The notes under the pieces: model-generated
Databases searched by the model: none
The model's input: the letters and a program-made list of their open reading frames with translations, nothing else
What the model was told of the DNA's origin: nothing
Translations under genes and position numbers: made by a program
Source: Psammoneis japonica
Taxonomy: Eukaryota
Direction: 5' to 3'
Length of the DNA: 64,000 bases
Assembly (NCBI GenBank): GCA_008632985.1
Contig: QPGO01000088.1
Coordinates: forward strand, 248,001-312,000
Shown: piece by piece, positions 1-64,000 of the stretch
How positions within the stretch are numbered: the stretch's first letter is position 1
Layout of the letters: every line of letters starts with the position of its first letter

Positions 1-2
1 AC

Positions 3-3360: not shown

Positions 3361-3561
<201 letters not shown>

Positions 3562-14060: not shown

Positions 14061-14731
14061 ACAACTTCCAAAGAATTTCAAAGATGCTGCCCAATTCACC
14101 GCAGTGAGCACTCTGGTTGATCTCCTTGCCTGGCATTTGATTTGCTCCTTGACATCAGGAAGAGTGGCCTTCCAAAGAGACCAGTGTGATGGCCACTGTT
14201 GCCACAGTGTCCTTGATCCTTGTCCACTTCCAACCAGTCCAGCTCTACATCAAGATTGCGCATGGTTTCATTCTGCTCGAGGCTGTTCACACGCGCTGAA
14301 ACCAGTTGCTTGCTGGTCTCGAGGCTGCCATTTGCATTGCCCAACACATCATCAATGACCTTTCTTGCATCTTTCACTTTTTCCAACCGCTCTTTCCAAC
14401 ATTGGATGGTTCCTTTTGGAGCCTTGGGGAAGAGAGAAAGAAACGAATCCAAGACTTTGTCGTCATCGTGTGTGTGTTCACTGTCTGCATCTGCAGCGGC
14501 GGTGGTGCTGGTCATGACGACATGCTGACTGGTGCTGTTGGCACTCCCCCCCCCCCCCCCCCCGCCACTGCCTTTTTCCAACTCGAGAGCAAGTAGAATC
14601 ATCGTTGCTTTCGAGATTTTGTGTCATGTTGGAAGTTGCCATGATGACTGCGATGAGTGTGGTGCAGGGTGCACGAAGAGAAGACACCGGTGGGCTGACC
14701 AAGGGACGGGATTGCACTGGATTTCTATGAG

Positions 14732-14981
14732 GAAATCAGTGCTGACATGACAACATCAAAAACCGTCAGCTCCATGGAGCTCCTCAGATGCCATTGTCTC
14801 AGAATGTGGTGGGGGGCATGACCCGGTCTCAAGGCCACATGAGCACAAGTTTGCCTGACAAATGAAAATGTGTTTGAGACTGGGTCATGCCCCCCATTGG
14901 ATTTTGAGACAATGGCATCCAAAGAGCACCATGGTGCCTCGTGCTTCACCATGTTGTTTTGTCATCAAAAGGACAGATTTC
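14732..14981. repeat. Imperfect inverted repeat, MITE-like
   Basis: Left arm GATGCCATTGTCTCAGAATGTGGTGGGGGGCATGACCCGGTCTCAA (~14787-14831) matches the reverse complement of TTGAGACTGGGTCATGCCCCCCATTGGATTTTGAGACAATGGCATC (~14874-14919); weaker pairing extends outward. Confidence 0.75.
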
Positions 14982-15189
14982 AGACTGTTTTTGCTCACGA
15001 ATCATGTCAGCAATTCAGTCGGCAAGAACCCAAAAGTTTCCCTGTGTAGAAAATGCACCAATGGTCTGATTGTCTTCCGCTTGAATGGACCAAAATGCCA
15101 ACAGCACTCTTCATCACAACTCGTCGCCACCTGCTGAGGCCACAGCAGCAGTTGCAATTTTGATGAGAGAGCAACATTCGCCATCACAC

Positions 15190-19900: not shown

Positions 19901-20815
19901 CATCCACGCCACCATCAACAGCTGTTGACATTCTTGATGTGTCTTTCTGCCAACTCCACCACAACATCTGCTGTGCCATGCACCAAGCCACTTGCTTCTT
20001 CTGTGCTCCAAGAACTTTTGCACAGTTGCAGCAAAGTCCTGGCAACAACAAATGGCTGCATTGATTGCTCCATTGATGCCAACTTTGATGATCCCTGTTG
20101 CGGCCAAAAAGACTCTCAAAACCTGGCAAACATCAAGTCTCACACCAGACATTTCATCTTGTGGTGCAAACAAGCCAATGTCCTCTTCTGTGGGTTTCTG
20201 AGCTGCAGATCCAGGTTGCACTTTTTGCTGTGGAAGCCAAGCATCTGCCACCACTGGCAACAGTCAGTGCACGACTTGATGCTGTGACCAGCAAAATTTT
20301 GAAACGGCTTCAGCTTCATGCACCACTCAGGTGCAAGAGCTGCAAGACACAAAATGCCACCAAGTCCAAGGCCTTTCTGCTGATGTAAAAGATGGAACAA
20401 TCTTGTCTTCAATTGTGCACAAGGACAGGCAAGTGTGCCTCAAGCTCTGAAAAATGCTGTTGGAGCTTTTGCCATGGTGCCAGCAAGCACACTGGCATTC
20501 CTTGTCACCACTGGTTCTGCCTGAGCTTGCAGGAACTGGTTCCCAGCTTGCTGATCAATTTACAAAGGGACTTGCTTTCAAGTCTGAATCTGGTCGGTTG
20601 ATCTTTTTGGTGGTGGTTTGGTTGCGTTGAGAGGGAGAGTTGACGTCTGTCTTTCATCCTTTTCATCCAAGCGCGACAAGGCGCGTTTCAAATTCGAAAC
20701 TCCTCCAAATTCCCCCATCAAATCTCTTTCAGTTACAATTTTCAGTCAGTACCTTATGCAAAAACAAGCTTTACTAGTTTACAACCTTGAGCTTCTGCTC
20801 ATTCAATGTCATAGG

Positions 20816-26460: not shown

Positions 26461-26694
26461 GGTTACGAGAGACTATTTCATCCACCTCTTATACTCGAGA
26501 TGTCAACAGCTCAGAGAGTAGAGAGTGACATCGTGCAACCAGAACGGGCCGCGGACGTCCATCGTCTTTTGCTGCGGGCGGACGGCACGGCGGAAGGACT
26601 GGGAATGGGATTGCTAGATACGCACGGTAGGACAGGCGCGAGCTAAGAAAAAACTTACTGGCAGATTCGAAAAATGGAAAGCTCTAAAACTGAT

Positions 26695-27660
26695 CAAGCA
26701 ACTGCTGAAGCTGTGACTTGGACAAGATCTTCATCCATGTCCTGCAATTCTTTGGCTTCCAGTTCTGTGTCCACCAAGAAAACAATCTTGCACCATCATT
26801 TCTCCAGCACCTTGTTGTTGTTGTTGAGCTTCTCCTCCCCGCCCCCCCACTGCAGGGGGTGCTGCACATCTCCACACACGCAACCCAGTGCAAGTGAAAT
26901 GACATGCAATCAATTTGACAAAAGAGATGGCTCATCAAGCTGTGACAGCATGGCTGCAAATGACTCCAGCTCTTGTTTGTTCACGTGTCAGCGCACAGCA
27001 TCCGGCTGGGCTGCCCCTGCCACTCTGCCAGCCGCCAGCAGGCCTGTTCCAGCTCCAGGTGATCCACTTTTCATCACGAGAGAGGCCGATTTTCTGCACA
27101 GTTTGGTGCAGTTGACTCCTTCGGCTTTGATCATTTCAAAAATTGAAAGGTGAGCGCGCACCTGAAAACACATGCAAAGTGCACACTTGCCCTTCGATTT
27201 GGCAAAAAACGGATTTGGAAAAAGTCAATTGCGCCAAATGCACAAATTGCCAAATGATGGGAATCGAACCCGCGCGGAGCACCTGGAGCTGGAACAGGCC
27301 AGCGGCAAAGCCATGTTTTGCATGATCTAATTGCACGTGAAAACAAACATTCACACAAGCAAAGGAACTCAATGCAAGAGCCACTTTTGTCGACAGAAGG
27401 GTGCAGAGATGAGAGCAGGGGGCAGAAGGGGGAGGACAAGAGAAACACACACAGGGGCCGGAGACGAAGCCGAAGTCGCTGAAGCTGAGCATCAAATGAG
27501 CTTCTCAGGAGGAGTGACAGTTTGAGCAGAGTCTGTGGTGAGTCATCTGAAGGTCAATCACGCGGCTGAGTTGACAGAGAGAGCAGGAGAGGAGACAGTG
27601 ATGATGTGGAGGCGAGATGCGATCATGGCGCAACGGCGCAACGAGGAATGCTTTTGCGCG
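26695..27660. repeat. ~1-kb TpA-depleted island (presumed transposon remnant) between two genes
   Basis: Roughly one TA in ~960 bp while CG is partly retained; flanks have normal TA content. Confidence 0.7.
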
Positions 27661-27938
27661 CACGTAAGGAGTCAGTCGCGCGGTCGGAGGGAGAAAACAG
27701 AAATCAAAAATGCGTAGGATTCTACGTGATTCTTTGGTACAGCATTACAAAAAATTGAACTTGTGCTCCGGCCTGTCGTCGCTCGTCGGTTGCCGACCGC
27801 ACAACCTAAACCGACCTGCTGAGCACAACACACGAAACACATCTCGCGGCGCACGCAACACCATCTGTGTAGTAGTTGGCTACATCTCTGTCTTTATAAC
27901 ATCCGAGTGTCTCTTCTCGTCGTATCAGCAGCAACAAC

Positions 27939-46607: not shown

Positions 46608-47952
46608 ACCCAACGTATTGCAACTATTGATAGAGCTGTCGAATGCAAGTTTGGTGGTGGACTAGAAGTGCAACTGCTTGTGCTCGCTGCTCGTTTCTTC
46701 CTAAATATTCCACGAAAGCCTTCGCTCGTCTTCACAGACCTCCCGCAGTTCCCCAGTTGGGAGTGGCCGCTTTCCCGCCATTACAAGTACAGGTTATGTG
46801 TACGGCCGACACCATTTCGTTTCCGATTTATCTGCCACGCAGTGGCGCTCTCCAGTGGAAAGAGGGCCACCACTGATGGCAGAGAGCACAGAGCACAGAC
46901 CTCCCAAGCTGGGAGTGGGCAGAGAGAAGGCATCCATGGAGTTGAAGCTGCCAGCTGCTGCCTGATCTGGCGAGAGAGTGCTGACTGGCGTGAGTTGCAA
47001 TGCTGTTGAAAATTGAAGAGCAAAAAGTGATGGCGGCTTCCTCCACTCAGTCGAGAGGCATCTCATCGCTCTGCTCATGTTGCCGGCTGGAGCCAATTCA
47101 CAGTGGCACCACATCTTTTCAAACTTCAAGCAGACATTTTTGATGAAAAGAAGGCAGTGACAAAGAACAAAAACAGAAAATCAAAAAAATGTTTTTTGCA
47201 TGCCCTCCCACTCCAGCTCCCTGGAGTTGTGTGTGAGGTGCGTGGTGCATCGTGAGTTCATGACAATGTCCTCAGATCAGATGACACAGCATTTTTTTTG
47301 TTTCGTGGTTGTTTGATGTTTCTTTGGACAGTTTTCAAAGTCTGCAAATGCCCATCTTCAAACAGCGAGACACTTCTTGTGCTGCAATGTCTGTTTGTCT
47401 TTTTGTTTGCTTGCTTTTTCCAGCACCCAGCATGCAAAATCCAGAACAATTCACAAGCAGTGTGCCACGCAGTTGGGCAGGGACAAATCTCTCCACAAGC
47501 AGTTGGTGATGTGGACAAATGCAAGCCAAGATGAGGGTGACAATGCAGGCAGCAGCACAGCCACTGGCAGCAATTGTGAGTTCCTGTCTCACCCCTTCTC
47601 AGCTGTGTGCCAAGGAGCCAAATGGACTGCAAGAAGGCTGCCCACCCACAGAGGTGGCTGATTCACTCGCAATCTCATGTGACACTTGTTCACACAAGAC
47701 ACACCGATGGTGCCATCCCACAAGCTCTGTCAGATGGCAAGCATGCAACAGCTTTTTGACTGGGCTTGACACGCAAGCAACACTTGCGCAGACATGGTGT
47801 TGTTCTCAATTTGGTCAACGGGTGTCTTGGTGCTCTGCTGTGTCCACCCATGGAATCTCCCCTTGAGGCACCAACAGCTCCAAGCAACTTGTTGGTTTGC
47901 AGACTGCACCTTGCATGCCATCAACACTCTGCCAACTCTGTTGGGTGGCAGC

Positions 47953-48319
47953 TGCAGCATGCGACTGTTACATGCATGTTTGTGATTGTGTGTTATTTGT
48001 GTGTCAATCGTACCACAGTCGTGGATGCGTGCAAAGGACAGAACGATCACACAGAGTTGATCGGATGTCGAGAATTGCAAACACGATCGATTGACGATGT
48101 TGACATCTCACGTGTCAATGGCAATCGCATCCGGACAATCTGTTGTCACGAATGTGTTCTCCGAAAGGCCTTTTGTCTGTAGAAGCAGTGCAGAAGCTTT
48201 AGGCCATTGAGAACTCGTTCGGAGAAACCAAAAATCACAGAGCAAAATTCAATCTCATAATTTCCACTTTTCGCACACTGCTCTACTTTCGTTTACACTC
48301 GTTCTTCGAGCATGGTGCA
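47953..48319 (+). repeat. 5' LTR (367 bp)
   Basis: TG...CA termini; ungapped match to 52320-52686. Confidence 0.95.
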
Positions 48320-51300
48320 TTGTGTGTACACACCACAGAAGGTAAAAAGCACGGAAAATGAAAATTTTAACTAATGTGCCTTTGCAAATTCTTCTGTGAA
48401 CAGGAACGAATCGCATCAGTTCTGCTGGAATCGATTTCCGAGCGGAAGAAGCTCAAGCCGAGCAGTGCCTCAAGATGGAACGCTGTTTTTCGTCTGCCAG
48501 ACAAGAGGATTCGCTCTAATGCGGTCTATTCCAAGCACCCAAGGATCAAGGGCTCTCAAGTGCACCGCATTATCAAAAAATCTACACCAAGTCATGGTTG
48601 CAGAGAATGCAAGTTCCGAGTCGATCAGGTCCGAGAAATGCGTCTGGCATGCAAGGAGAGACTGTTGGAGAGTTTTTGGAGACCGAATCAACGAGCCTCG
48701 AGTCCAAGAGCAAGATGGAACCGTTGGAAAGTACCTCAAGAGTCTCGTGTCTCATGTCTTTCCAAGAATTGCACTTCAGAATCAGAACTGTTATTTTCAA
48801 GACGATCTGAAGAAACCAGAGCTGCTTGACAGCAAGAAAGCCTCTGTTAGACCCAAGAGGTCAATGATGAGAGTCTGTGCAACCCTCAGATGGATTCTAA
48901 GTCGAATCTAGCGGGAAACCGAGCGCTGATTCATCAGCTGTCACTCGCACCGCAAGGATGGCAGCATCAGTCTACTGTCCAAAACAATCAACTGTTGCAA
49001 CTCATCCTTGATGAGCTGATTAAGTTTTGAGTCATCTGAAGGTCGTTCATGACGTCCGTGACGAAAAAACACATCAACTCAGGCTCTGACAGCGCAGTTG
49101 GTTCCAAAATAAAAAAGGTTCCAAATTTGGTTCCAAAAATGGTCTCCCACATGGCACCAGAACAATCCAAAGTGAATGCAAGGTCTCATCTTTGAAAAAA
49201 GAATACCTGCATCACGGATTGAAGCTGTTCTAAAAATGAACTAGCAAAAGAGTGCAAGGGTGACTCTGAAAGAGACCCAAAAATGCGCCGTTCAAATGGC
49301 AATCGCACGCGGTCGCGTCGCGATGACGAAAATGCCGCTCGCAAAAAAAGAGATGAACGTCATGATTGATCAGGCGGTTCAAAAAACACTCAAAGCGAGT
49401 TCCTTGAACAAAGAAAAAGAGCATGAGGGCAAAGAATCAGATTCTGACACCCTCAGTGAAGAAAAACACCAATTTGATCGGATGATCCAGACTGAATCCG
49501 AAGAACAATTTTGGTCCATTCACGAATCATGTGCTTCACTGGGTGTTAGGAAGCCCAGAAAAAAGGCAGAAATAATTCATGCCAGTCCAGGAGTCATCAT
49601 TTACATGAACACTTCCTTGGGAAAGGAGAGAAAAAAAAAGCATCTGCGTGTTCCTGTCGATGACGGAACATCGTCAACCACAATTTTGCGCAAATTCGTG
49701 CGAAAGTTGAGAACACAAGAATCCGCCACCAAAAACTTGGGAAACCAAGGGTGAGCTCTTTACGACTGACAGTAAACACCGAATTCAGTTCTCACTGTGC
49801 GAAATTTAAGGCACACTGATGTGCAAACAGCACATGTTGAAAACACCAAATTTTCTTCAGGTTCAATTGATGTGATCATGGGACGCGACTTAATGTCCAG
49901 TCCTGCAAGTCACATTGGACTGCGCAAATGAAGAAATCTAATGGGAAGAAGCAATTGCCTTATGAAGAATGTTCGTGCACTCTTCGATGCCGATGTTTTC
50001 AAGCTGAAAACCGATCACATTGAAAAATGTGACGCCGTGAACAGAGTTGATGACGGAACCAATGGTCCTCGACTCACATTGTCACGCCATCGATCTTAAT
50101 CAAGTGACAACTACGGCGATGCATCTAACCCAAATGAACACAACCAACTCAATCTTCTTCTCAAGAGGTTGAAATCGTTTTGAAAAGTTCCTCAGACGAA
50201 TGCATGGGAAGCATCAGCGGATCTCATCGTGGAAAATCTGACGCGATTCCACGACGCGTGAGAACCTTCTCCTGTCACAGTCTTTGGAGGCGTCCAATCA
50301 AAAGGAGTTTGACCTGTTATGAAAGATTGAAGTCTCAAGAATGAAACCACTCTGAATGAGTTGCTCTGAGACTCATTGTCTAAAGAAAACAGGTCGAGTT
50401 CGACCGTGTCCGACACTCAGAAGCTTGGCATGAGGTTCATGCAGGTGGTGTGTCCTTTACCCAACATTCAGGAAATGCTGTTGAAGCAAGAACGTTTCAC
50501 ATGTGTGATCCATTTGATTCAAACATGGAATGCCACCATGTCAAATAAAAAAAGCACACATCGTGCTCACACGAAAATCATGCCGTGGGGAGAAAATGAG
50601 CACTGTGGACTTCCAATGAGAATCTGTAGAGCCCCAGACATTTTTGCACAACACTTGAGTGAACTCACAACAGATTTGAAGTTGTCAGAATGACTGCATG
50701 TGATCGTTTGTGCCTGACAAAAGTAACTTCAAAACATCACCTGTGCAAGCAACAGCTTAGTGCGGCATTCAAACGACTGGAACAGTCGCTTAGAAGGTTA
50801 ACAACAAAAGTCCTTCACCATTTAACTTGAAACAAACTATCAAGACTTCCATGCGTGACGACATGCAATCGATCACAAAGAAAATGGAGGCGATTCAAGC
50901 AATCGCAACACGAGAAAAACGTAAAGAACACTGCGACATCTCGTTGTCATACGTCGCCATTGTCGAGACATGCAGTCTCAACGATCTCCTGCACAATGCT
51001 GGCCAAATTCACCTCAACAAAGGTCAAATGGCAAAAGCACAAGTACGGAACGAAAAGTCTCCGAAAATGTGGAGCGCATCAAATCAAAAACTGTGTTGTC
51101 ATCACACACGCATTTCAACATTGTACGTTACAACGGAAAAAAGAACTTCTGTCCACAGTGAAAACACTCATAAAATTCCGAAATGTGCTGTTTGGCCAAC
51201 AGATTTATGCATGCACGGATCACAAGACACAACGGACAAAGTCATACGTTGACAACTTCAGTCCCGAATTAGAGTGCAACGAGGGCAAGGCAAACATCGT

Positions 51301-52319
51301 CGCGATGGACGCGATCAGCCGACTTGCCACAGAAAATTGAATCCTACGACAATGTCCTGCCGTTAAAACGGGATAAAGACATTCCCTCCAAATTGTCGGA
51401 CGCGACATGTCATACGAACACTTTTCGTGGAGGCGAGCGAGATTGAAAAATGCTCATGTCACAAGGATAAAATCGCCTTTTTAAAGGATGATTTAGGAAA
51501 AAACAGTGACAGATTGGCGTGCATTATACGCGTCCACTTCACACTGGCAAAAGACAATCTCACAACACCCGCACGGTTGCATTGTACAATGTACGAGGCA
51601 AGACATTAAAATGTGCATCATGTCGACACACGAGATGTGCCAAAGATCTAGAAAAAGAAAAGAAAAATGGACATTTGTCCACTTGGTGCACGAAACCAGT
51701 GCCTTCGGAATGACAAAATAACACCAGCATGTCAGAAAGAAACGTCCAAATGACGATTAAAATCCAACTGATGGACAGTTGAAGTACAAAAAAAAAAAAA
51801 AAATCCACAATGGAGTTCATAACCATCACAGGATTGATCATCAAGACGAAATGGTCACAACATCCTTGACCATCGTTCATTGTTGCTTGTGAAACGTGGC
51901 AGTGCAGCAGAGCAATGTGGCATGTAAAGTAAGCCCGCCAAACCACATGAAATCCACAAGCAAGCAAGTGAACGCCACAATTAAGAGCGCACATTAAGTG
52001 CTGGGCATGATGCCATGTACAATCGACATCAGGAAAAACACTTGCTCCAGGACAATTGGTCCTTGTGTTCATGTCAACAAGAACGTCAATGAGAATGCTC
52101 GACGTGACACTACACAACATGTGCACATTAAGTGAGAAACAAACAATGTCACTCTCAAAAGACATTCGGAAATTGGAACGGCCCTGTGTTGCCCACACAA
52201 AACAACAACAGTCATTGCCAATGGCACAATGCAGTGAAAGTGGAGACATTGTTGACACTGTTGATGTCCGTCGAATGATCCACTTACAAATGACTCTAAT
52301 GTGCAATTAGGGAGGCGAA

Positions 52320-52686
52320 TGCAGTGTGCGACTGTCATGCACATGTTTGTGATCACATGTCATTTACATGTCAATCGCACCACAGTCGTGGATGCGCACA
52401 AAGGACAGAACGATCACACAGAGTTGATCGGATGTCAAGAATTGCAAATACGATCGATTGACGATGTTGACATCTTGCGTGTCAATGGCAATCGTATCCG
52501 GACAATCTGTTGTCACAAATGTGTTCTCCGAAAGGCCTTTTGTCTGTAGAAGCAGTGCAGAAGCTTTGGGCCATTGAGAACTCGTTCGGAGAAACCAAAA
52601 ATCACAGAGCAAAATTCAATCTCATAATTTCCACTTTTCGCACACTGTTCTACTTTCGTTTACACTCGTTCTTCGAGCACAGTGCA
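52320..52686 (+). repeat. 3' LTR (367 bp)
   Basis: TG...CA termini; follows the polypurine tract; ungapped match to 47953-48319. Confidence 0.95.
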
Positions 52687-53371
52687 CAGCGCCAGACATT
52701 GAGAAGAGCAGATGCATTTTGTTAATTTTGCAGAGAGACTCTGGAGGTGCTCTTTGCATTGAAGCATTGGCTTCCAGTTTGCTGCAAGCTTTGCATTTCA
52801 TGCTTTTCTGACTCCCAGCCTTGCCTTTTTCTGGTGCTTGTTTTTCAGTTTTTGTGTCTTTGCAGATCCAAAGCTCACACCCAACACCCATCAAAAAGCA
52901 CTCAAGACAAAACTGCTTGAGATTGACAGGATGGAAGCTGGTGAGCAAAACCATTTTCTCAATGCCCTTTGTGTGTGGGATCTTTGTCAGCACACTTCAA
53001 GATCACATCAAGTGCTTTGTGTGCACCAACTGCCATGTGCTGGCAAACCAAGTGGACAGCTTTCATCCCCACCCTGGGCCAGATGTGAAGTGGAAGCTTC
53101 TCTTCTTTGGTGTCTGCACCTTGGCAATGTGGGTTTTCACAAACTTCAAACCCCATCAGCAAACTTGACAAGTGCAGATGAACTCCAGCTGATGCTGTTG
53201 TTGACTTGTCTTGTTGGACTTGGTGCAGCTGGTGATTTTCTTGTGGAGCACTGCTTCCACACTGTTGGTGGCACAACACCACATCCTCATGGTGACTTGG
53301 CATTCCCAGTGAATGAGGTTGCAGCCAAAGCAGCTTGCTGGGCAGCCCAAACTCTTGTTTTGGTTTCTGCA

Positions 53372-53787
53372 TTTGATCTTTGGAAGAAAACCTTGGGCAC
53401 ATGTCAAGTTTCCCAATGCAGTGGTGCTGCCTCCAGAAATCCGTGAGCTTCATCAAACCCATTTGGATCTTTGCGCATGTTTTGGAGGCCATGCCAAAGA
53501 CCTGGCCAAGTTTGTTGCATGGCAAAAGGACAAAATCTGATCAATGCAAGCACTCCAGTGCTGCATTTCTTGAAGGCATGGTTTGATCTTTGAAAGAAAA
53601 TCTGAAAGTGCATGTCAAGTTTCTCAACACAGCAATGCTGCCTCCAGAAACCTGTGAGCTTTGTTGGACTCATTTGGATCTTTGTGCATGTTTTGAAGGT
53701 CATGTCAAAAACTTGGCCAAGTTTGTTGCTGGGTGAGGACAAAATCTGATTGACTCAAGCACTCCAGTGCTGCATTTCTTGAAGGCA
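53372..53787. repeat. Tandem duplication, 2 x ~210 bp
   Basis: TTTGATCTTTG...CAAGCACTCCAGTGCTGCATTTCTTGAAGGCA repeated at 53372 and 53582. Confidence 0.9.
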
Positions 53788-55199
53788 CAAGTGTGCACAT
53801 TTTGCACCCTGATGCTGTGCATTGGTGCCAAGCCTTTTTCTGCCTCTTCTCAACTGCTCAGTCTCTCTTGCCACTTGGTGTCATCCACACAAACAAAGCA
53901 AAGTGAGAGTCCTTTAAGCACACCAACTTGGAAAAGAGGATCCATCTGTTGCAGATGCAAAAGAGGAGGTGAAGTTTCCCCATTGCTTTGCATTGGAGAT
54001 GGCTTGTGTTGCTGAGCAGGCTGGACTGATCACTGCAGAGTGAGGTGTGTGTGTGTTGTGTCATGATCGTGCATTGTGCGTTGCTCTTTTAATTTTTGCA
54101 CTTCATCCACTCACATGCACAGAGACAGAATTGTCATTTCCTCACCATGGCTGTGTGGGGCAAGAAGTGGTGAGTGTGATGGAACTTTGAGATGCTGGTT
54201 TTCAGGCTGTGCAACAGTCTGACATTTTAAATTTTAAAAACATGAGGCAGTGCACTGAATGTGATTTGGGGTTGGAAAGTCACCAAGGGGGATGCTTTAA
54301 AAGGCACAGCAATGCAAGGCTGCCTGCAGGGGCTGAGCAGACATGGCACTCACCAGTCTCACAACAATGTTCTTGAAACAAGGAAGGGGGGGCTGAGTGG
54401 AAAAATTGGCAGTGTTTCTCTTTTGACCATGGCACTCACTGCAGCAGCCATGAGTGCTCTGCTTGCTGCCAGCTTTGTCATTGTAGATCAAGACATGTGG
54501 TGCACTCCTCTTGTGATTGTGTGTCATGCTGCTTTTCTTTTTTCAATTTACCCCACTCACCCCAGCTGCTCTTGCCTTCCTGCCATGCACAGAGACATTG
54601 TGTTTTTGTCTCCTCACCACAGTTGTGGGCAAGAATTGGGCACATGGGTGGCAGAAGTTAAGGTGCTGAGTTTCCAGGTTGCATGGCAATCTGGGCTTTT
54701 CAAGACAAGGTGGTGCACTCACTGCAATTTGGGGTTGAAGGTGCCAAGGAGGGCCTGCTCCTTTGAAAAGCACAGCAGTTGTGCAAGGAAGGGCTCTGAC
54801 TGGGGCTGAGCAGAAGCGGTGCTTGGCCACCAATGATGTTGGCAAAAGAGAAAGCTTCTTGTTAAAGTTGCTTGTGCCAAAGCAGGAGCAAAATGTCAAA
54901 CTTAAACTTGTTGCAGCTTTTGCTGTCATGGGCAAAACAAGGCCATTTTGGACATCAAGTTGCTGTGATGGAGAGAGGCGACATTGACAACAGAGAACTC
55001 ACAGACCATGCTCTGACCCAGGCTTGTGTTGTCATCATGCAAGATGTGCTGCTTGAGAAGCCAAGCTTGTTGCAAAAACATTGATCAAAGAGATCAGAAT
55101 TTTTGTTCGGATGATCAGCTTTACAAGCCTTCCATGAAAAATTGCATGTCACACCTCCAAGTTGAGAAAGCAAGAAAGAGTTCCTGAGACATGTTCTTT

Positions 55200-58100
55200 T
55201 GAAATTGTTTGTTGTGCCACAGCCCTGCTCCCAGCCTGAACATGCTTCTTTGCCATCAAAGGTGGTCATCAGTCTTGATTCAAGATTGGCATGTTGCACC
55301 ATTTCTGTCTCCTTTGCTGGTGCACTGCAAAGTGGCATGCCAAAGTGGAGGCAGCATCTGCCTGGACTTTGATGAAGAGACACCTGTTTCTGTGAGGGCA
55401 GCTGCTGGCAAGGAAGAAGCATGGCATGTTGAAAATTCTGGAGATGAAAGCAACTGCCAACAACAAAGCCTGTCACATCTCCAATGACAGTCACTCATGC
55501 AGATGGCTGCCATCCCAAATGAGCATGCTGCCCCTCCAATGTGCTGCACCTGCTTGACAAGGTGACAAAACCAACTAGTTTGAGGCCACACAAACACCAC
55601 ATCTGAGGGCATTTTGAGTTCATCACATTTGCAATGTTTGCTGCAGCTTTCTGGTTGGCTGCCAATCTGTGTGGACACAGATGGGCCAAGGCTGCTCCAG
55701 CATTGGAACAAGTGCTTTTGCAAGTGTTGCACAACAGATTGCAAGCCAGTGTTTGAGTGAATGCCTCTTTGTTGACAAGAGCCTGGGTGACAAGAGAAAA
55801 TGCCCAAATGACAGGGAGTGCAGTTCTCAGAAGTGCTGCTGCATGTCCCACTGTGGCATTGTTTCCAGCCGGGAGAAGAGCAGCTGCCACAGAGACAATC
55901 ATCATTCTTCCATGTTGGTGGCATGCATCATCAAAAACACCACCCAAAGACCACTTGTCCCCAGAGGAAAAGTCAAGGCAAGCCTGGTCAGCATCCTTTG
56001 CACTTTGTAGAGCATTTTTGTGGCAGAAGAATCTTCTGAAGGATGTTTTGTGGACAGATTCTCTGGCATGAAGAAACAGTCCTCAAACCAAATGATGCAT
56101 CCTTGGAAATGACATCTGACCACACACAAGGATGATGAGCCAGGCAGTGGTGTGGACCCCAGGCAGCTGTCATCCTGAGTAGAGGAAAAGTCAGAGAGCA
56201 GAGTTTCTTTTTGTGTTGGCAGCACATTTCACTCCAACATTTGTTGGCAATTGACTGAAGCCATGTTTCTGCTTTGGCTTCTGTTGTTGTCTGAGCAGCT
56301 CACTCAACATGTGGCATCTGCCACCAACCCTGCTGCTGAGAGAGACAAATTCCTTGCAATGGGGGCAATGCACTCATTTCAGATGAGGACCACACCCAAG
56401 AGGCAGTGGCGCATGCAGTGGGCTCTGCATTGCAGGGCACTTCTTGAGCTTTCAACTCTGGTGTGCTTGTCTCAAATCAACACAATGAGGTACGTCCAAT
56501 GTCAGATGCTGAGCAAGAACATTTGGAAGACAAGCAAGCACCTGTCACTCCCCAGATGATCCCACCCATGAGATGGCATCAGCCATGGTTGTGCCCTTCA
56601 GCATGAGATGATCTTTCTGATGGCAACACTTCTGCTCCACACATCAGCACAACAATGTTGTGGCCAAATCTTTTTGTCTGAACACAAGAACCCCCAATTG
56701 CTGGTGCTGGCGTTGCTCCCATTGTCATTGTGCCAAAGCAGCCCCCTCAGCTGTGAAGTGGTTTGTTCAACAATGACCCCCTTCAAGAGAAAGAGTCATC
56801 TGCAGTGCCTTGGACAAAATGGGATCCTTCCAACCACAAAACTTTTGACCCGAATCAATGCACTGGCACAGCTGAATTTTTGGTTTGAAACAAAAAAATG
56901 AACAAGAGCACGTGCTGGCACAAGACAAGTTGCTCATTGTGGATGCCAGCAGTGCTGTCAGTGCTCCTGCTGTTGTTCCAAGATCATGGTCCTTTGCCTC
57001 AGAAACACTGGGTTGGCTCAACTCTCAACAACTGCGACACCTGCCATTTTCAAGAAACAGCTTTGTGTGGTCAGGGCCAGGGTTTGGGGTTGGAGTTGTG
57101 GGCAGGGAAAGGAGCTTTTGACAAAAGACCAGCTTGTGATGGTGTTTTGAAAGCAGGTGTGGCTGAGCAAGGTTCTGTCATCCAAAAAGCCAATCTTTGA
57201 GATGGCATCAGAGTTGAGAGTCAGCCTGTGTGATGAGCAGGCACCCTTTTCATGGTGCGATCTGTCCTGCTGTTGCAACACACTTGAAAACAGGAGTGTG
57301 ATCATGCTGTTCATTTAAGAGAATGCCACAGCACAGCAGGTGCCAGGGCCAGCAGCAACAAGGAACCAACTGTTGGCACACTTCATTGCTGGAGATGCAT
57401 GATGGTGATTTTTGGAACACTGAGAAACTGAACCACCGCAGCAGCTGTCTTGCTCCAATGGCTGTGTGACAGCACTTCAACACATGAGAAAAATCCAGCT
57501 GACTGGCTAGACTGCAAACAATGTCACAAAAATCAAATCCAGCTTTTGCACTTGCTTGCCATTGAGTGTTGGTCACCCTGTCTCTTGGCACATTAATTTG
57601 TGTGGGCCCAAAATGCTCTGCAGACAATTTTCTGACTTTCCAAAGAACCCTCCTTGTTCTGTTGTCAGTCAAAGGAGATGCTGATTTTTTTCCCACAAGA
57701 GCTGGGTGTCACACCAAGGGGTCACATTGTGCCACATCAATGTCTCTCTGGCAGTCATGCTCAGACCAAGAGGTGTTTTCTTCAGCAATGACTCAGCTGC
57801 TGCAGAGAGTTTCTCTTTCTGTTCCAGAGAGCAGAGAGTGCTCTCACCACAGAGAGGTCCTCTCTCTTGGCAGAGACATGCTGTGCCAGAGGCTGGCCAG
57901 AGACAAGAACAACTCAAGCATGAGATGAAGTCATGGGTTCTCTTCTGCTGATTGCTTTTGGATTTTTTCAGCTTTGCATGAAAAGAATTGTTTTTGGGCA
58001 AACGGACATTTTGACAAAGAAATTGTGGTGTGAGGACATCCTCACGTGCATTTCAAAAATCACAACGCATGAAAAACCACACAACTCATGATGCTTTCAC

Positions 58101-59300
58101 AATCCACAGCATGCAAACAAACAACAAAATGCAATCACTCCACATGCCATTCCAGTGGAATCCATGGGCTGAGCTCTCAAATGAAAAGGAGGACTTCCAA
58201 GGAAGCCAGTGCTCTGCTGATCAAAGTGGAGCTTGAACATGACATGAAGCTCTCAAGAGTTGAAAGAAGTCATCTGAAACATTTCCAATGGCAGCATTTC
58301 ATGCAGGTGACTGCCACTCCAAACAAGCATGAGGATGCCTCCAATGTGCATTTGCTTGGCAAGTCAATGGAGTTGACTGGCTTTGGACCACACACATGAT
58401 CTGGAGGGATTTCAAGACCCTGTCTGTGTTGTCCCAGATGAATTGATGCTGCTCCAGAGTCAGTGCAAGTGCTCTCAATGAAGTCACTTCACAATTGACA
58501 TGAAACAGATTGCCAGCCAATCTTTGAAAGAACACCTCTTTGTTGTCAATGAGTGCTTGGTTTGCAAGAGAAAAAGCCAAATGGCAGGGAGTGCATTGTG
58601 AGAAGCACAATCAAACATCCTGCTGTGGCATTGTTTTCAGTGTTGAAGAGAGTGGTGGCCATGGAAATGACCGTCTTTCTTCAATGTCAGGTCACACACA
58701 TCAAAACCACAGCCCAAGGACCACTTGCACCCCAAGGAAAAGTCAAAGAAACATGCACTCCAAACCCAACCATCCCCTGCACTTCATGGAGCACGGGCAT
58801 TTTGCAAACACATTTTTCATCATGAAGGAAAAATCCTCTCAAGCCAAATCTGCATTCTTCAAAATGATGTCTGACCACACATGAAGATGACCAAGTGAGT
58901 GATGGCATGAGCTGCAGTTTCAGTCCAGAGAGGAGAAGTCAGAGAGCAAGTTGCATCTGTGACATCATCAATTCCAAGATTTTGCAGGAACAATGTGCTG
59001 AGTGCTGTTGCCACTTTACAATCATGGCTTGTTCTGGAGCATCCCATTCAACACACAGAGTCTGCTGACATGATTTCATTCAATGACAATGACCCCACTC
59101 CACAACATCATGAGACAGAGAGGAGCAGGAAGAAGATGAGCACATCCAAGCATGGGATGGTGCTTTTGATGGCAACAATCCCATCATCCACAAGATCAAG
59201 ATGTTGTCCATGTTGGTGCCTTTAGAGCAAGAGATCTCTCTTGACAGAGACAATGAGAGTGCCTTTCAGACCAGCACATTGGTGTGGATGGGTTGTTGGT
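55200..59300 (+). mobile_element. Heavily decayed probable LINE remnants, including a diverged internal duplicate (~55800-56200 vs ~58580-58960)
   Basis: Shared blocks such as GACCACTTG.CCCC..AGGAAAAGTCAA; weak peptides HFMQVTA and ISLDRDNESAFQTS resembling the LINE at 12950-14060. Confidence 0.35.
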
Positions 59301-59639
59301 CAAGACAGAGCAGGCCAAAAAAGAACACGCTCAAGCACCTGCATCCCCCTCCTTGTAGACTGCAGTGCTTCTGTCATTCTGAGGTGGTCCACTCATCTCA
59401 GAGGGGCTCTGGGGAGTGTGCATGTCTCATCTCTGTTGAAGGAAGAACTGTTTGGAGGTCTGCCAGAATCTTGAGCTGGCAAAATGGCGTCATGGGGTGG
59501 TTTGAATGCACGCAGGAAAGAAAAAACATGTGCAAGGAGAAGAGCAGGATTGAGAGATGATGCAGAGTGAAAAAAGCAGTTTCCTCCATGGAAAGGCATC
59601 TGGGCAGATGACAAGCTTCAAAATTGGCAACCTCACTTC

Positions 59640-60360
59640 CAAAGTTTGTTGGACCTTAAAAAGGAATTGGTTGCCATGGAGGCTTCACCAAGCTTCCTGC
59701 TTTTCACATTCAATGCCAAGACCCACTGCTCAAATGTCCCAGCCAACAAAGCCCTTCACAAGTTCACCTCCTGCTTCCAACCACACAGAAATGAACATCA
59801 AGATGTGCCAACAGAGGCTCCCATCAAAGCTCTCTGGATTGTTGTGAAAGACAACATCTTCACATTTGGCGACACAACCTGGCATTGACACAATGCAACC
59901 ACCATGGGCACACCACCTGCTCCCATGTGTGCCACCCTTTGCTGTGCACTTCACAAGGCCACAGTTCTGGAGGAGTCAAGCACTGATCTCCTCCACTGCA
60001 AGCAACTCATGGATGACATTGCCAGAATTTGGCACCTTGCCAACACCACCACCGATGCTGCCCATTGGGGTGCATTTGCCTCCAGACTCAATGACTGCAA
60101 TGTCACTTAGATTGTGAGCTCCGCATCCTGCACAGTGAATTTCATTGACCTCACTGTGGCCCTCCACAGCTCTCATCTCCACATCAATCTTTGTGAAAAA
60201 GAAATGAATTTGCATGTCTTCTGCATGCTGCCACACTCAGCTCACCCACCTGGAGTCCTTGGCGGCCTGATCATGGGAATGCTCTTCCAATTTAAAAATC
60301 TTTGCTCTGACCCCAACAACACAAAAGCAAAAATGAAGCTGTTGCACTGGTGCAAGCCTG
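59640..60360 (+). mobile_element. Penelope-like element reverse transcriptase fragment, decayed
   Basis: LLFTFNAK...IVVKDNIFTFGDTTW...MGTPPAPMCATLCCA...CKQLMDDIARIW...VNFIDLTV...LCEKEMNL...PHSAHPPGVLGGLI matches the PLE RT motif order (GxAMG..AP, RYxDD, FLDL, YxK, SxHP). Confidence 0.85.
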
Positions 60361-61007
60361 CAGACACAAACCCAGCAAACTGCAACCAACATTCCAGAAA
60401 GCACACAATCTGATCTTTGGAAACACAACAAGAGAAGACACACCTGAGCAGAACCCCACTTTTGTCCATGTCCCGAGCCACCCAGATGACCTGCCACATT
60501 GATTGAACTGCAAAAACTTTGGAAACGGAAACAGGCTGTGGCTAACCTTCCCCACTTTCAACCACTTGCCAACCTTTGAAGTCATGCTCTTCAACACATT
60601 GGCCTTGACTGCTTGATTGCATGCACTGCAGCTGCTCACAAAACCTTCTCTCCTGCCACAACCTTTGCATCTCTAATCTCCCCTTGGCTTCATCCTTTTA
60701 GATTGCGTGCAAGGAGGCCACTGAGAGAGAGGGAGAGGAGAGACACACACAGAGAGATGGCAACTTGAGTCCACTCATCTGTCCCTCACCACTTGGATTT
60801 GGATTGTGTTGATGCAACAGCTCACCCACACATCAACAACAACAGCCGGGTGCTGACAAAGCCACCACAAAAGTCTCACTCCTGACTTTGACCAATGTCA
60901 TTGTGCCCGCTGTCTGTCTTGCAGCTTGAACAACCACCCAATCAGTGGCTCCTGAATTGGCCACTTTGTTTGTCAGTCACATTTGATGGATGAATCAGCT
61001 TTGCCCA

Positions 61008-61100
61008 TTTTGTTTGTTTGTTTGTTTGTTTGTTTGTTTGCCAATTCTGTTCATTTGTTTGTTCATTCAAGAGAGAGAGAGAGAGAGGAAGGAGGGGGGG
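61008..61100 (+). repeat. Short (TTTG)n and (GA)n microsatellites
   Basis: Visible directly. Confidence 0.85.
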
Positions 61101-64000
61101 GGTTAGAGAGATGGGGAGCAAAGCATTCAGAAAAAAGAACATTTTGATTTGCAGAGAGGAAGAAGATGAATTTAGAGAAACAGCAAGGCAAAAAGAAGAT
61201 TGAGCTTGGCAAGGGCTGCAGGTGGCGGCAATCTCATTTGATTTTGTTTGCTTTGGCAGCTCAAAATGAATGAATTGAGTTTGGAGATGGTTTTCTCACC
61301 ACACTCTGGCTCCATGAATGTGGGTGGTCAAAATCCTGTTGCTTTTGAAAACAGCAATTGACAAGTTGCAGGTGAGCAGCAACATTCTGCTGAGCATGGA
61401 ATCTTTGTGCTGCCTGCTGCACCAGCTCACACACATCATGCACAACATGCACCTTTACATTTGACAATGCAGGCTCAGCTTTGAGGCTTTGAAAACTCAA
61501 TGACAGATTTTCAACATTCCATCGTTGACCAAAAAGCACTGTTGGCTTTGGACAGTGTGGCATCTGGAGTGTGGACAGATCCAATCATGTTTTTCTGCAT
61601 TGAAGTGCTTGATTGACAATTTTGACACCTTTGCAGAAAGCTTTCTGTGGGGTTTCAAAAAAAAAAACAGCGTGGCCATGTTGGCAAAAGAGAGAGTTTT
61701 GAAGCTGCATGTTCAAGTGCACATGCTGAAAGCTCACACCTTTTGCAATCACAACACAGGTTTTGTCATTTCAGTGCATGGTTGTGCATGGCATGACAAT
61801 GCTCGGAAGCCACAAATTCTTTTAAACAACCAATGTGTCCCTTGTTTTTGAAATGAAGTGCTTGATGATTCAAATGGACTCGTGGGTTGCACATTTTCTG
61901 CTTGGGTTGAAAATGATTTGACCATGTTGGGGGATGCCAGGTGGACAGAGAATTTCAAAGCTGTGTGGTCAAAGGCACTTTGAAAGCTCGCACCTTCTGT
62001 TGCACTTGCAATGCATGGGCTTTGTTTGTTCAGTGTGCAGCCCACCAAGTGCCTGGTGTCTTGAACTCATTTTTCCCCTTCAGATCACATCTTGCTGAGA
62101 TTCACATTGTGTGGCAGCTGCCAAGCCAGGATCTCAACTCCTTGCTCTGCAGCCCAGTCCACTCTGCAGGCAGCCCTTCTCTTTGCCAAACATCGATTGT
62201 CTGTGGCTCTCCAACAGCTTTGCACAAATGCGAGTCAGTGATCTCATTCTGTCATCCTTCCCTGCACAGCACCCTGAATGGACAGTCACTGGGATGCTCC
62301 TCCTTCTCCTCTTTCTTTGCATTGTTGCTCCACTGCTGCCAGCTTGAGGGGTGACAGGTTCCAGTCCCAGGTGGGACTCCGTGTGACATTGGGCCCGCAG
62401 AATTCTGCGTGCGAGCTCCGCAGTGAATTTGTTGCGCAATGAAAATGCAAATGATTGCCAACAGAAAAAGATGCAATTTTACGAACGCATCTCCTCCTCC
62501 ACACTTGCAGCACATCATTGACAGTTTGCCTGGGCATGTTCTTCAGACATTAAAGAACACACCCAGAGCATTTTCATTCTCATGAGTGTTGAAAATGGAA
62601 AGCCTTTGGCTTCGCAAAATGGGGAGCATGAAACAATTTCATAGAACATCACATGCAGAAATCTGCGTGTGCGACATGCCATGCGATCCAAAAAACTCTT
62701 GATGTCACAATGCAGCAGTGCGAGGTCCCACCTGGAGCTGGAACGTGTCGGGTGCCACAGAGCAAATCGAGCCCACAGACTGCCCTCCTTCTTGGATGAG
62801 AGGCTGTGGACTGTGGATTGTCTTGTGACAAAGAGCACCCCCCCCCCCCCTTCATGAGCATCACCACAGCACTCATCAAACAAAGCAGATGATGCCAACA
62901 GCTCACTCACACATTGCAATCAATCTGCTGGCAAGTGCGGAACTGCTTGCTTGTTTTTAGCCCTGTGATGTGCATCGTCGCATCGCAAGTGCACGTTTCC
63001 ACGCGCAGGTTCACTTCGGGCCACTGGGGCCCTGCGCACTGCGCCACTGATGCACTCGCATGCTCACGGTTTGGGTTGTGAATGCTGTGTTCTTCGCGGC
63101 TTGTTGCAGGTCACCGCTGCCCACTGTGGAGGCAGACGGAAAGAACACAACCCTGGGCACAACTGTGCAGGGTCTAGCACTTCTTCTACAGGGTCACCAG
63201 GAAAGCACAGACACCGACTTCCGCTACATCAACCTGCAGCACCCTCCAAGACGCGCAGCTGCGAAGACAACCAAAAAAGAAAACGATCGCGACAATGGCC
63301 TCCCTTGCGTCGCTGACATCTGTGTCTATTTTTGCCGTATTTTCCCGTTTCTTTTCGCAGCATTCGGAGCTTTTATGCAAGCAATGTGATGGGCCAGTGG
63401 TGCTGGCGTTGAGTTCAATCCGTCGAGGCGGATTTGTCGCTGAAGGTGCAGTGCAGAAATTGTGAGAATGCAGCATCAACATGACGGATTTTTGTGATGT
63501 GCTGTTGTGTCTTTGGTGTTGTTTCTCACTTCTTGTCATCATTTTGACGCATGTGCTGTGAGGTGTCCACGGGGCTTGGGTTTTCATGGTGCTGACTTTC
63601 TCTTCGGAGCTTGTCGTTGAATGATCAAAATTGAGCTGCCACTGGAATTTATGGCAAAGAGTTGGCGGCGGTGACATCTCAACATCCCTTGGGCCGATTT
63701 TCGCGATTCTTGTTTCATCATCAATGGAAATTGTACAAGGAATCCAAGAGGCTTGGTTTTGTTGTGCAAAACTCCATTCTGTGCAGATGGATTTATTGGA
63801 TGCCGTGCGCACAGAAATGATGCTTCAATTGGAAGGGGTGCTCCAGCGATGTTGTGGATTGAACAAGGAAGAATGAAGCCCCAGACATGCACTGCATGTA
63901 ACAAGAATGTCAAACATGAATGTCAAACATGGCACGGGGTTTTTTGCGTCAGTTGATCGTGTCGGGTTGCCTTGATTTGACAGAACATTCCACGGCACCA

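What the first reader, a model, noticed from the sequence alone, without database searches (positions are those of the whole stretch)
47953..52686. Twin LTRs as an internal mutation assay: 16 of 19 differing sites are TA/CA/TG swaps
LTRs are identical at insertion (established). Manual ungapped alignment of 47953-48319 with 52320-52686 gives 19 differing sites: 7 TA vs CA or TG, 9 CA vs TG (both bases differ), 2 CG vs CA, 1 other C/T. Example: CGACTGT-TA-CA-TG-CA-TG-TTTGTGAT-TG-TG-TG-T-TA-TT-TG-TG vs CGACTGT-CA-TG-CA-CA-TG-TTTGTGAT-CA-CA-TG-T-CA-TT-TA-CA. CA-vs-TG sites need a TA or CG ancestor hit on opposite strands; most CGs survive in both LTRs, so TA is the parsimonious ancestor, giving an AT-rich TATATA-type LTR with TGTA...TACA ends. 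Each copy retains TA at sites lost in the other, so mutation occurred independently after insertion, with almost no background divergence.
Basis: seen in the sequence. Interest (0 to 1): 0.92.

Follow-up and report, generated by a model that had tools for sequence, protein, structure and literature searches.

The report
TpA-eroding hypermutation seen in twin LTRs
The two end-repeats of a diatom jumping gene differ almost only where a TA has become CA or TG, and the DNA around it shows the same change carried to completion, which points to an unusual, locally targeted mutation process.

Summary
The two 367-bp LTRs differ at 28 bases in 19 sites, all transitions: 9 CA/TG swaps, 7 TA vs CA/TG, 2 CG vs CA, 1 other. 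The host is a diatom, judged from its phosphoribulokinase.

The larger finding is around the element. It sits inside sharply bounded domains (about 2590-20600 and 46850-64000) where TA has almost vanished (o/e 0.05) and CG is mostly gone (0.22), while CA and TG are about 1.8. The gene-rich DNA between them is normal.

The direction TA>CA/TG is shown three ways:
- In a copia element in a wiped domain, 8 of 12 conserved Tyr codons are now His or Cys, yet 12 of 13 Arg CGN codons survive.
- The element's family carries TA at 5 internal sites where this copy has CA or TG.
- A related contig in the same sample lacks the element and keeps TA (5) or CG (7) where the window has CA/TG.

TA is lost first, with ATA/TAT contexts going fastest, and CG is lost later. 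The mechanism is unknown. Eight literature searches found no description of it.

The parts
47953..48319 (+). 5' LTR, 367 bp, TG...CA ends
   Evidence: direct repeat of 52320-52686, 92% identical, 100% identical in purine/pyrimidine terms.
52320..52686 (+). 3' LTR, 367 bp
47949..47952 (+). target-site duplication CAGC, left copy
   Evidence: Read: the same four bases lie directly before the 5' LTR and directly after the 3' LTR.
52687..52690 (+). target-site duplication CAGC, right copy
48320..52319 (+). internal region of the element, with no open frame (41-60 stops per + frame); probably a decayed Ty3/gypsy-type pol
   Evidence: One search gives only a weak RT_RNaseH match (E = 0.047, below the curated cut-off). 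TA o/e 0.26, CG o/e 0.88.
52309..52319 (+). purine-rich tract directly before the 3' LTR (polypurine-tract-like)
   Evidence: Read; function inferred from position only.
46850..47952 (.). left flank of the element; start of wiped domain 2 (last TA at 46829, no TA at all in 46830-47952)
52687..62380 (.). right flank; wiped domain 2, with TA 0-9 and CG 2-8 per kb
   Evidence: The stretch 52687-53200 is matched without a difference by an 890-nt contig of run X1 (table 8).
62380..64000 (.). patch with TA still scarce but CG returning (23-48 per kb); identity unknown
   Evidence: Its 4 ORFs (of the 65 scanned) have no Pfam match.
2590..20600 (.). wiped domain 1 (last TA at 2580, TA resumes at 20386-20734)
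14030..19440 (+). patch inside domain 1 that keeps CG (27-51 per kb) but has lost TA (0-8 per kb); holds a truncated Ty1/copia element
   Evidence: RVT_2 E = 2.9e-14 at 18201-18800.
16696..18788 (+). copia integrase-RT homology used for the codon polarity test
   Evidence: 8 of 12 conserved Tyr are now His or Cys. TA is 4.8 per kb against a median of 44.1 in 15 relatives.
26686..27664 (.). 1-kb patch with a single TA, inside otherwise normal gene-rich DNA
53395..53729 (+). tandem duplicate in wiped DNA (53395-53518 / 53606-53729): 81% identical, 100% identical in purine/pyrimidine terms

Best explanation
The locus is a degenerate LTR retrotransposon, probably Ty3/gypsy-type, with a 4-bp target duplication. 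It belongs to a very abundant family in a diatom genome and is inserted in DNA that a context-specific transition process has already worn down. That process turns the two self-complementary pyrimidine-purine dinucleotides into CA or TG. TA goes first and fast (the T:A pair becomes C:G, fastest when flanked as ATA/TAT). CG goes later and more slowly. The process acts on bounded stretches (transposon-bearing, non-genic DNA) and spares neighbouring genes. The element is younger than its flanks and is caught mid-course: about half or more of its TAs are gone and its CGs are nearly intact. The two LTRs were hit independently after insertion. A site hit in one copy reads TA vs CA/TG. A site hit in both on opposite strands reads CA vs TG. 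What is shown: the differences, the domains, the direction TA>CA/TG, the order TA before CG, and the context bias. What is inferred: that the nine LTR swaps descend from TA, and the mechanism. My preferred mechanism is low confidence. Both targets are palindromic, as are the sites of maintained DNA marks. CG loss would then be deamination of 5-methylcytosine in silenced DNA. TA loss would reflect a second, more mutagenic mark or enzyme acting at TpA: oxidised thymine (5hmU/5fU type) mispairing with G, adenine deamination, or T:G repair biased towards C:G.
For: 1. LTR pair: all 28 differences are transitions and 27 lie in Y-R steps. Per-copy decay is 0.47 for TA against 0.05 for CG (Fisher P = 0.006). 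Swaps expected from TA ancestors are 1.5, from CG ancestors 0.03.
2. Domains: wiped DNA (30118 bp) has 3.4 TA and 13.3 CG per kb (o/e 0.05 and 0.22; CA 1.76, TG 1.85). Normal DNA (27782 bp) has 36.6 and 60.4 per kb (o/e 0.56 and 1.01). Edges are sharp to within about 100-200 bp.
3. Polarity from protein: in copia pol residues 330-702 compared with 19 intact homologues, 179 of 197 conserved columns are identical. Of the 18 changes, 8 are Tyr>His (5) or Tyr>Cys (3). 8 of 12 conserved Tyr are lost but only 1 of 13 Arg CGN codons. Two homologues checked as controls keep 27 of 28 and 29 of 30 Tyr.
4. Polarity from the family: at 18 internal positions where nearly all family contigs differ from this copy, the changes are TA>CA 4, TA>TG 1, CG>CA 4, CG>TG 3, none creating TA, 2 creating CG, 1 TG>CA double, and 2 other transitions.
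5. Sister contig lacking the element (runs X1 and X2): at the 22 listed of its 41 differences, it has TA (5) or CG (7) where the window has CA/TG, and the reverse once.
6. Graded series, giving TA per kb and the share of surviving TAs with a 5' A or 3' T: normal 36.7 and 45% (456 of 1014); LTR element 19.6 and 28% (26 of 93); copia patch 3.9 and 10% (2 of 21); fully wiped 2.9 and 3% (2 of 68).
7. Control: an un-wiped tandem array at 21237-21830 shows 6 TA losses and 6 TA gains.
8. The state is unusual: 0 of 78 environmental copia loci show Tyr>His/Cys excess, and the lowest TA count in 1614 one-kb windows is 10. One of 120 database homologues (P0213) has 6 of 12 Tyr>His/Cys.
Against: - The family consensus at the LTR sites was not seen.
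- The single polarised swap (51776-51777) has TG in 16 of 16 family contigs, so swaps can start from a stable dinucleotide.
- A uniform TA rate predicts 1.5 swaps, not 9. The excess needs hot contexts (a TATA-like run), which is plausible but assumed.
- A gapped alignment explains part of one cluster by two 2-nt indels.
- Only 22 of the sister contig's 41 differences were printed, and their contexts assume unlisted neighbours equal the window.
- Run X1 may be the sample the window was assembled from, so its agreement is not independent.
- In wiped tandem duplicates, transitions also occur outside TA/CG contexts, so the process is broader than two dinucleotides.
- Nothing here identifies an enzyme or a modified base, and no whole genome was available.
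Confidence: 0.72

Rival explanations
1. The CA/TG swaps descend from methylated CpG. Each copy deaminated on a different strand, which is ordinary CpG decay of a silenced transposon.
For: CG>CA/TG does occur here: 2 LTR sites, 7 of 18 polarised internal changes, and 7 of 22 sister-contig differences. CG is nearly gone from the oldest wiped DNA.
Against: 19 CG sites are intact in both LTRs and only 2 are hit once, which gives 0.03 expected swaps against 9 observed. In the hot first 80 bp all four CGs are intact in both copies, while no TA is intact in both. The copia element has lost 8 of 12 Tyr TA but only 1 of 13 Arg CG. LTR CG o/e is 1.07-1.15.
Confidence: 0.08
2. Artefact: TA and CG in these stretches carry base modifications that a long-read base-caller misreads strand by strand. 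The consensus then flips between CA and TG, and the 'mutations' are not in the DNA.
For: Symmetric modified dinucleotides misread on either strand would give exactly CA/TG coin-flips and sharp domain edges. The sequencing platform of the assembly is unknown to me.
Against: An 890-nt contig of run X1, with word depth 66, matches 514 bp of wiped flank without a difference (table 8). That depth points to accurate reads, which is an inference because the library type is not on record. The family's variable places in X1 are also dominated by transitions (622 vs 126). A protein from another public assembly (P0213) shows the same Tyr>His/Cys pattern. The sister contig with TA/CG intact sits in the same run at similar depth (61.7).
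Confidence: 0.05
3. The two LTRs are not sisters. The element is a recombinant, or was gene-converted, between family members, so the differences are old family polymorphism rather than post-insertion change.
For: The family is very large (5058 contig pieces laid) and contigs joining LTR to LTR exist (table 5). The polarised swap at 51776-51777 shows lineage-specific double changes.
Against: There are no transversions and no required indels in 367 bp, although transversions are 126 of 748 variable places in the family (P = 0.006 for none in 28). A perfect 4-bp target duplication flanks the element. Only 1 of 167 non-Y-R positions differs.
Confidence: 0.07
4. There is no targeting. A genome-wide mutation bias against TA and CG acts everywhere, and the 'normal' DNA is simply coding sequence held by selection.
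For: Wiped domains begin within a few hundred bp of ORF ends. The normal stretch is densely covered by long ORFs. A 1-kb patch with only one TA lies between genes.
Against: CG o/e is 1.01 in the normal DNA, which selection on codons alone would not hold. A non-coding tandem array there shows balanced TA gain and loss, 6 and 6. A sister copy of the wiped flank keeps TA and CG.
Confidence: 0.08

Closest known systems
Repeat-induced point mutation (RIP) of ascomycete fungi
   Same: Transition-only hypermutation of transposon-bearing DNA, carried close to saturation of a target dinucleotide. It has sharp edges, spares genes and destroys reading frames. Diatoms carry DNMT4 enzymes that group with the fungal RID protein, and their function is unknown (PMC9998398, passages read).
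   Different: RIP, as I recall it, changes C:G to T:A, mainly at CpA, and so enriches TpA. Here the dominant change is T:A to C:G at TpA, and TpA is wiped out (o/e 0.05). Whether duplication triggers it was not established.
Decay of methylated CpG to TpG/CpA in silenced transposons of animals, plants and diatoms
   Same: The slower CG>CA/TG component, the CA/TG excess, and the restriction to non-genic DNA. Several environmental copia loci show this state alone (CG o/e 0.13-0.23 with TA 0.5-0.6).
   Different: It does not touch TA. Here TA is lost earlier and about ten times more often per site than CG.
5-hydroxymethyluracil marking of transposons in dinoflagellates
   Same: A thymine modification reported to prefer TA and TC dinucleotides and to be enriched on, and silence, transposable elements including LTRs (PMC11572971, passages read). 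This would fit a TpA-specific, transposon-directed lesion.
   Different: The host here is a diatom. The searches found no report of such a base in diatoms. That paper does not report a T>C mutational consequence in the passages I read. No enzyme could be sought because no genome is held.
Very-short-patch repair and CTAG scarcity in Escherichia coli
   Same: A T:G-to-C:G biased repair system meant to counter 5-methylcytosine deamination also converts TA-containing words into CA/TG-containing ones.
   Different: That is a bacterial, motif-bound, genome-wide effect of modest size. Here the effect is near-total, regional and eukaryotic.

Membership tests
LTR retrotransposon | Two long terminal direct repeats with TG...CA ends | tested here: met
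   367-bp repeats, 92% identical, starting TG and ending CA.
LTR retrotransposon | Short target-site duplication flanking the element | tested here: met
   CAGC at 47949-47952 and 52687-52690. A related contig lacks the element (table 8, record 9).
LTR retrotransposon | Internal gag-pol coding capacity | tested here: inconclusive
   No open frame. The only match is RT_RNaseH at E = 0.047, below the curated cut-off.
LTR retrotransposon | Primer-binding site and polypurine tract | tested here: inconclusive
   A purine-rich tract lies before the 3' LTR. No tRNA-complementary site was looked for.
LTR retrotransposon | Multi-copy family in the genome | tested here: met
   5058 contig pieces of run X1 lie on the element. 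Summed word depth is about 8000-43000 on it against about 100 on the flanks.
Fungal-type RIP | Only C:G to T:A transitions | tested here: not met
   T:A to C:G at TpA dominates: Tyr>His/Cys 8 of 18 changes and TA>CA/TG at 5 of 18 polarised positions.
Fungal-type RIP | TpA enrichment of the mutated DNA | tested here: not met
   TpA o/e is 0.05 in wiped DNA.
Fungal-type RIP | Triggered by sequence duplication, premeiotic, RID-dependent | not testable with these tools
   No genome, no crosses. Both repeated (LTR family, copia) and apparently low-copy flank DNA are affected.
Methyl-CpG deamination decay | Losses confined to CG, giving TG/CA | tested here: not met
   7 LTR sites involve TA and only 2 involve CG. 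The copia element lost TA, not CG.
ADAR- or APOBEC-type editing of retroelement nucleic acid | Changes made before or at integration, one polarity, strand-coordinated | tested here: not met
   The LTRs differ from each other, so the changes came after insertion. Both polarities occur, and non-transposon flank DNA is affected. Strand runs were judged by eye only.
Thymine-modification (5hmU / base J type) system | Modified thymine at TpA and a TET/JBP-family enzyme in the genome | not testable with these tools
   No genome is held and sequence alone cannot show a modified base.

The most novel reading that the evidence does not exclude
This diatom has a dedicated, RIP-like genome defence of opposite polarity. 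An activity recognises the palindromic dinucleotide TpA (and more slowly CpG) in transposon-bearing or silenced DNA. It may be a maintained mark on T or A, or an adenine deaminase. It converts the pair to C:G at roughly a hundred or more times the background rate, copy by copy, erasing Tyr codons and TA-rich promoter elements (my inference). It would be the first TpA-directed hypermutation system. It would also make TpA, not CpG, the most mutable dinucleotide of a eukaryotic genome compartment.
Probability: 0.35. Interest if true: 0.92.

Novelty: new variant of a known kind. Interest (0 to 1): 0.8.

Why it matters
Context-dependent hypermutation of silenced DNA is known as CpG decay and as fungal RIP, and both remove C. 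Here the fastest target is TpA and the change runs from A:T to G:C. It runs nearly to completion inside sharply bounded stretches next to intact genes.

If real, it has several consequences:
- It is a new mutational signature that points to an unknown DNA mark or enzyme in diatoms, a major phytoplankton group whose DNMT4/RID-like enzymes have no known role.
- Standard LTR dating and Kimura-distance repeat landscapes would be badly wrong in such genomes. Here 7.6% LTR divergence goes with about 0.6% background divergence.
- Old repeats become invisible to ordinary similarity searches but visible in a purine/pyrimidine alphabet.

Tried and rejected
- **Dinoflagellate host.** This was my first guess, from the TA scarcity and 5hmU. 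A spliced-leader relic search gave 0 matches. The phosphoribulokinase ORF at 778-2169 is 84-88% identical to diatom enzymes, so I dropped it.
- **Whole genome.** None is held.
- **Earlier notes of this scan.** Nothing by place, words or sequence.
- **Other LTR copies.** A metagenome scan and a viral-contig scan with Y/R-degenerate LTR patterns each gave 0 matches. The read-laying run printed no rows for the LTRs.
- **Identity of the fully wiped DNA.** 0 of 65 ORFs of 110 aa or more match Pfam at E <= 0.001. The 430-aa ORF at 8375-9664 has no relative in either protein search.
- **A second twin-LTR assay on the copia element.** No LTR pair was found even with transition-tolerant scoring (score 40.5 against 31.5-38 for shuffles). 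Pol homology is limited to 16696-18788, so the copy is truncated.
- **Strand-coordinated runs in the LTRs** (a deaminase hallmark). Judged by eye only: TG runs in the 5' LTR face CA runs in the 3' LTR, but this is partly forced by how swap sites are defined. I make no claim from it.
- **CA-versus-TG excess in 10-13 kb** as a clue to which strand is hit. Dropped, because the ancestral composition is unknown.
- **Literature.** Eight searches found no paper describing joint TpA and CpG erosion or TpA-directed hypermutation in diatoms or other stramenopiles. Passages of PMC2806351, 10.1101/2025.10.24.684338 and PMC9258296 held nothing relevant. The library lacks most subscription journals, so this is not proof of absence.
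Full report
**Observation.** The two stretches are a true LTR pair. Each is 367 bp, begins TG and ends CA. They are flanked by a perfect 4-bp duplication, CAGC, at 47949-47952 and 52687-52690.

The ungapped alignment gives 28 differing bases in 19 sites:
- 9 CA/TG double differences
- 7 TA vs CA or TG
- 2 CG vs CA
- 1 other C/T

All 28 differences are transitions, so in a purine/pyrimidine alphabet the copies are identical over 368 nt. 27 of the 28 lie in pyrimidine-purine steps, which cover 200 of 367 positions (P = 5e-7). Nine double-differing steps were never reached in 20000 random placements. Only 1 of 167 positions outside such steps differs. A gapped alignment can trade five substitutions near positions 17-22 for two 2-nt gaps. 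That is a minor caveat.

**What the element and the host are.** The 4-kb interior has no open frame and only a sub-threshold RT_RNaseH match (E = 0.047). I read it as a decayed Ty3/gypsy-type element. That reading rests on the weak match and on a remembered resemblance that I did not test.

The family is very abundant. 5058 contig pieces of public run X1 lie on the element, with summed word depth of roughly 8000-43000 against about 100 on the flanks. Transitions make up 622 of the 748 variable places.

No genome is held. The host is a diatom: the phosphoribulokinase ORF at 778-2169 is 84-88% identical to diatom enzymes (Helicotheca, Ditylum, Phaeodactylum). My first guess, a dinoflagellate, was wrong.

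**The surroundings change the picture.** Dinucleotide counts in 1-kb and 250-bp steps show two sharply bounded domains, about 2590-20600 and 46850 to the window end.

| DNA | Size | TA per kb (o/e) | CG per kb (o/e) | CA o/e | TG o/e |
|---|---|---|---|---|---|
| Wiped domains | 30118 bp | 3.4 (0.05) | 13.3 (0.22) | 1.76 | 1.85 |
| Normal, gene-rich DNA | 27782 bp | 36.6 (0.56) | 60.4 (1.01) | 1.14 | 1.13 |

The total of Y-R steps is unchanged, so TA and CG have been converted in place to CA and TG.

The LTR element lies inside the second domain. Its flanks are wiped: there is no TA at all in 46830-47952, and just one TA and one CG in 52680-53400. The element itself still has 19.6 TA per kb and a normal CG content. 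It is therefore younger than most of the erosion and is now undergoing it.

Three further patches keep CG but have lost TA:
- 14030-19440, which holds a truncated copia element (RVT_2 E = 2.9e-14)
- 62380-64000
- 26686-27664

**Direction of change.** Three independent polarisations agree.

1. *Copia protein.* The copia pol, read through its three stops, was aligned with 19 intact homologues. In residues 330-702, 179 of 197 conserved columns are identical. Of the 18 changes, 8 are Tyr>His (TAY>CAY, 5) or Tyr>Cys (TAY>TGY, 3). 8 of 12 conserved Tyr are gone, against 1 of 13 Arg CGN codons. Two homologues checked as controls keep 27 of 28 and 29 of 30 Tyr. The same pol stretch has 4.8 TA per kb against a median of 44.1 in 15 environmental relatives, with CG at 48.3 against 57.1.
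2. *Family majority.* At 18 internal positions where nearly all family contigs differ from this copy, the copy has changed as follows:
   - TA>CA 4 and TA>TG 1
   - CG>CA 4 and CG>TG 3
   - no change created a TA
   - 2 changes created a CG
   - 1 TG>CA double change
   - 2 other transitions
3. *Sister contig.* A contig present in runs X1 and X2 at similar depth matches both flanks at about 82-85% and lacks the element. At the 22 of its 41 differences that were printed, it has TA (5) or CG (7) where the window has CA or TG. The reverse occurs once. There is one swap, 4 other transitions and 3 transversions.

As a control, a tandem array in normal DNA (21237-21830) shows 6 TA losses and 6 TA gains, so there is no directional decay there.

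**Order and context.** TA goes before CG. In the LTRs the per-copy decay is 0.47 for TA and 0.05 for CG. In the copia element it is 67% against 8%.

Survivors are not random. The share of remaining TAs with a 5' A or 3' T falls in step with TA density:

| DNA | TA per kb | Surviving TAs with 5' A or 3' T |
|---|---|---|
| Normal | 36.7 | 45% (456 of 1014) |
| LTR element | 19.6 | 28% (26 of 93) |
| Copia patch | 3.9 | 10% (2 of 21) |
| Fully wiped | 2.9 | 3% (2 of 68) |

TTAA is the commonest survivor. So the most mutable site is the central pair of ATA/TAT.

A uniform rate predicts 1.5 swaps, not 9. But the swaps cluster in the first 80 bp, where a TA ancestor would give an alternating TATA-like run, which is the hottest context. 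This step is inference.

Against the single background difference, TA decay in the LTRs is on the order of a hundred-fold faster. The error on that figure is very wide.

In wiped tandem duplicates (53395-53518 / 53606-53729), 19% of bases differ and all are transitions, some outside TA/CG contexts. The process is therefore broader than two dinucleotides.

**Is it real DNA, and is it general?** An 890-nt contig of run X1 at depth 66 matches 514 bp of wiped flank without a difference. This argues against a long-read base-calling artefact at modified bases. However, the library type is not on record, and the run may be the assembly's own source.

Among 78 environmental copia loci, TA o/e is 0.35-1.02. 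The lowest 1-kb TA count is 10 (median 49, 1614 windows), and none shows Tyr>His/Cys excess. Of 120 database homologues, one (P0213, from another assembly) has 6 of 12 Tyr>His/Cys. The state is therefore rare but not unique.

**Mechanism.** What is shown is a regional, copy-specific, transition-only erosion of TA, then CG, to CA/TG. The cause is inferred.

Both targets are palindromic, as are the sites of maintained DNA marks. CG loss fits deamination of 5-methylcytosine in silenced diatom transposons. For TA I see three candidates:
- A thymine mark of the 5hmU/5fU kind mispairing with G. In dinoflagellates, 5hmU prefers TA and TC and marks and silences transposons (PMC11572971, passages).
- An adenine deaminase acting as a RIP-like defence. 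Diatom DNMT4 groups with fungal RID and has no known function (PMC9998398, passages).
- T:G repair biased towards C:G, as in bacterial very-short-patch repair (recalled, not checked here).

None of these can be tested from this window.

**Comparison and novelty.** The process works like RIP or CpG decay: hypermutation confined to silenced or transposon DNA. It fails the defining features of both. RIP removes C and enriches TpA. CpG decay does not touch TA. Eight literature searches found no description of it. The library is incomplete.

**Verdict.** The more important finding is the wiped domains around the element.

Noticed in passing
window 1-335 and 1790-2124: The 3' part of the phosphoribulokinase ORF (778-2169) is repeated at the window start (70% nt identity, 84% in purine/pyrimidine terms). 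This suggests tandem PRK paralogues. This pair has normal TA and CG.
   Followed up: partly
window 3353-3561: A long purine-rich microsatellite (8-nt unit, self-matches at 8-bp offsets, read as repeated KERK in translation) lies about 760 bp inside the left edge of wiped domain 1.
   Followed up: no
window 44220-45215 (+): An ORF with a 2OG-Fe(II) oxygenase domain (PF13640, E = 9e-12) lies 1.6 kb from the start of wiped domain 2. This is the prolyl-hydroxylase-type family, not the TET/JBP family, so no link to thymine oxidation is claimed.
   Followed up: no
window 30081-32816 (+) and 45558-46661 (-): Intron-free long ORFs: one has a Pep3/Vps18 domain (E = 1e-28) and one ends in a MYND zinc finger (E = 5e-10). 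They mark the normal, gene-rich stretch.
   Followed up: no
window 8375-9664 (+): A 430-aa open frame with internal repeats lies in fully wiped DNA. It has no relative in two large protein searches. Long frames are favoured there because TAA and TAG have vanished, so it may be spurious.
   Followed up: yes
table 5c: joint 47902 to 52687: A contig of depth about 35 joins the window-like left flank to the right flank without the element, with 7 other letters between. This is an empty-site form besides the divergent sister contig. The insertion may be heterozygous or polymorphic in the sample.
   Followed up: no
window 55494-55976 and 58298-58746: An old duplication inside wiped domain 2. The aligned part (55733-55976 vs 58504-58746, 240 nt) has 62 differences, including 10 CA/TG swaps, and no TA or CG is left in either copy.
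   Followed up: partly
loci L063, L064, L004, L066: Some environmental copia loci have strong CG loss (o/e 0.13-0.23) with ordinary TA (0.50-0.58). This is plain CpG decay without TA erosion and makes a useful contrast.
   Followed up: partly
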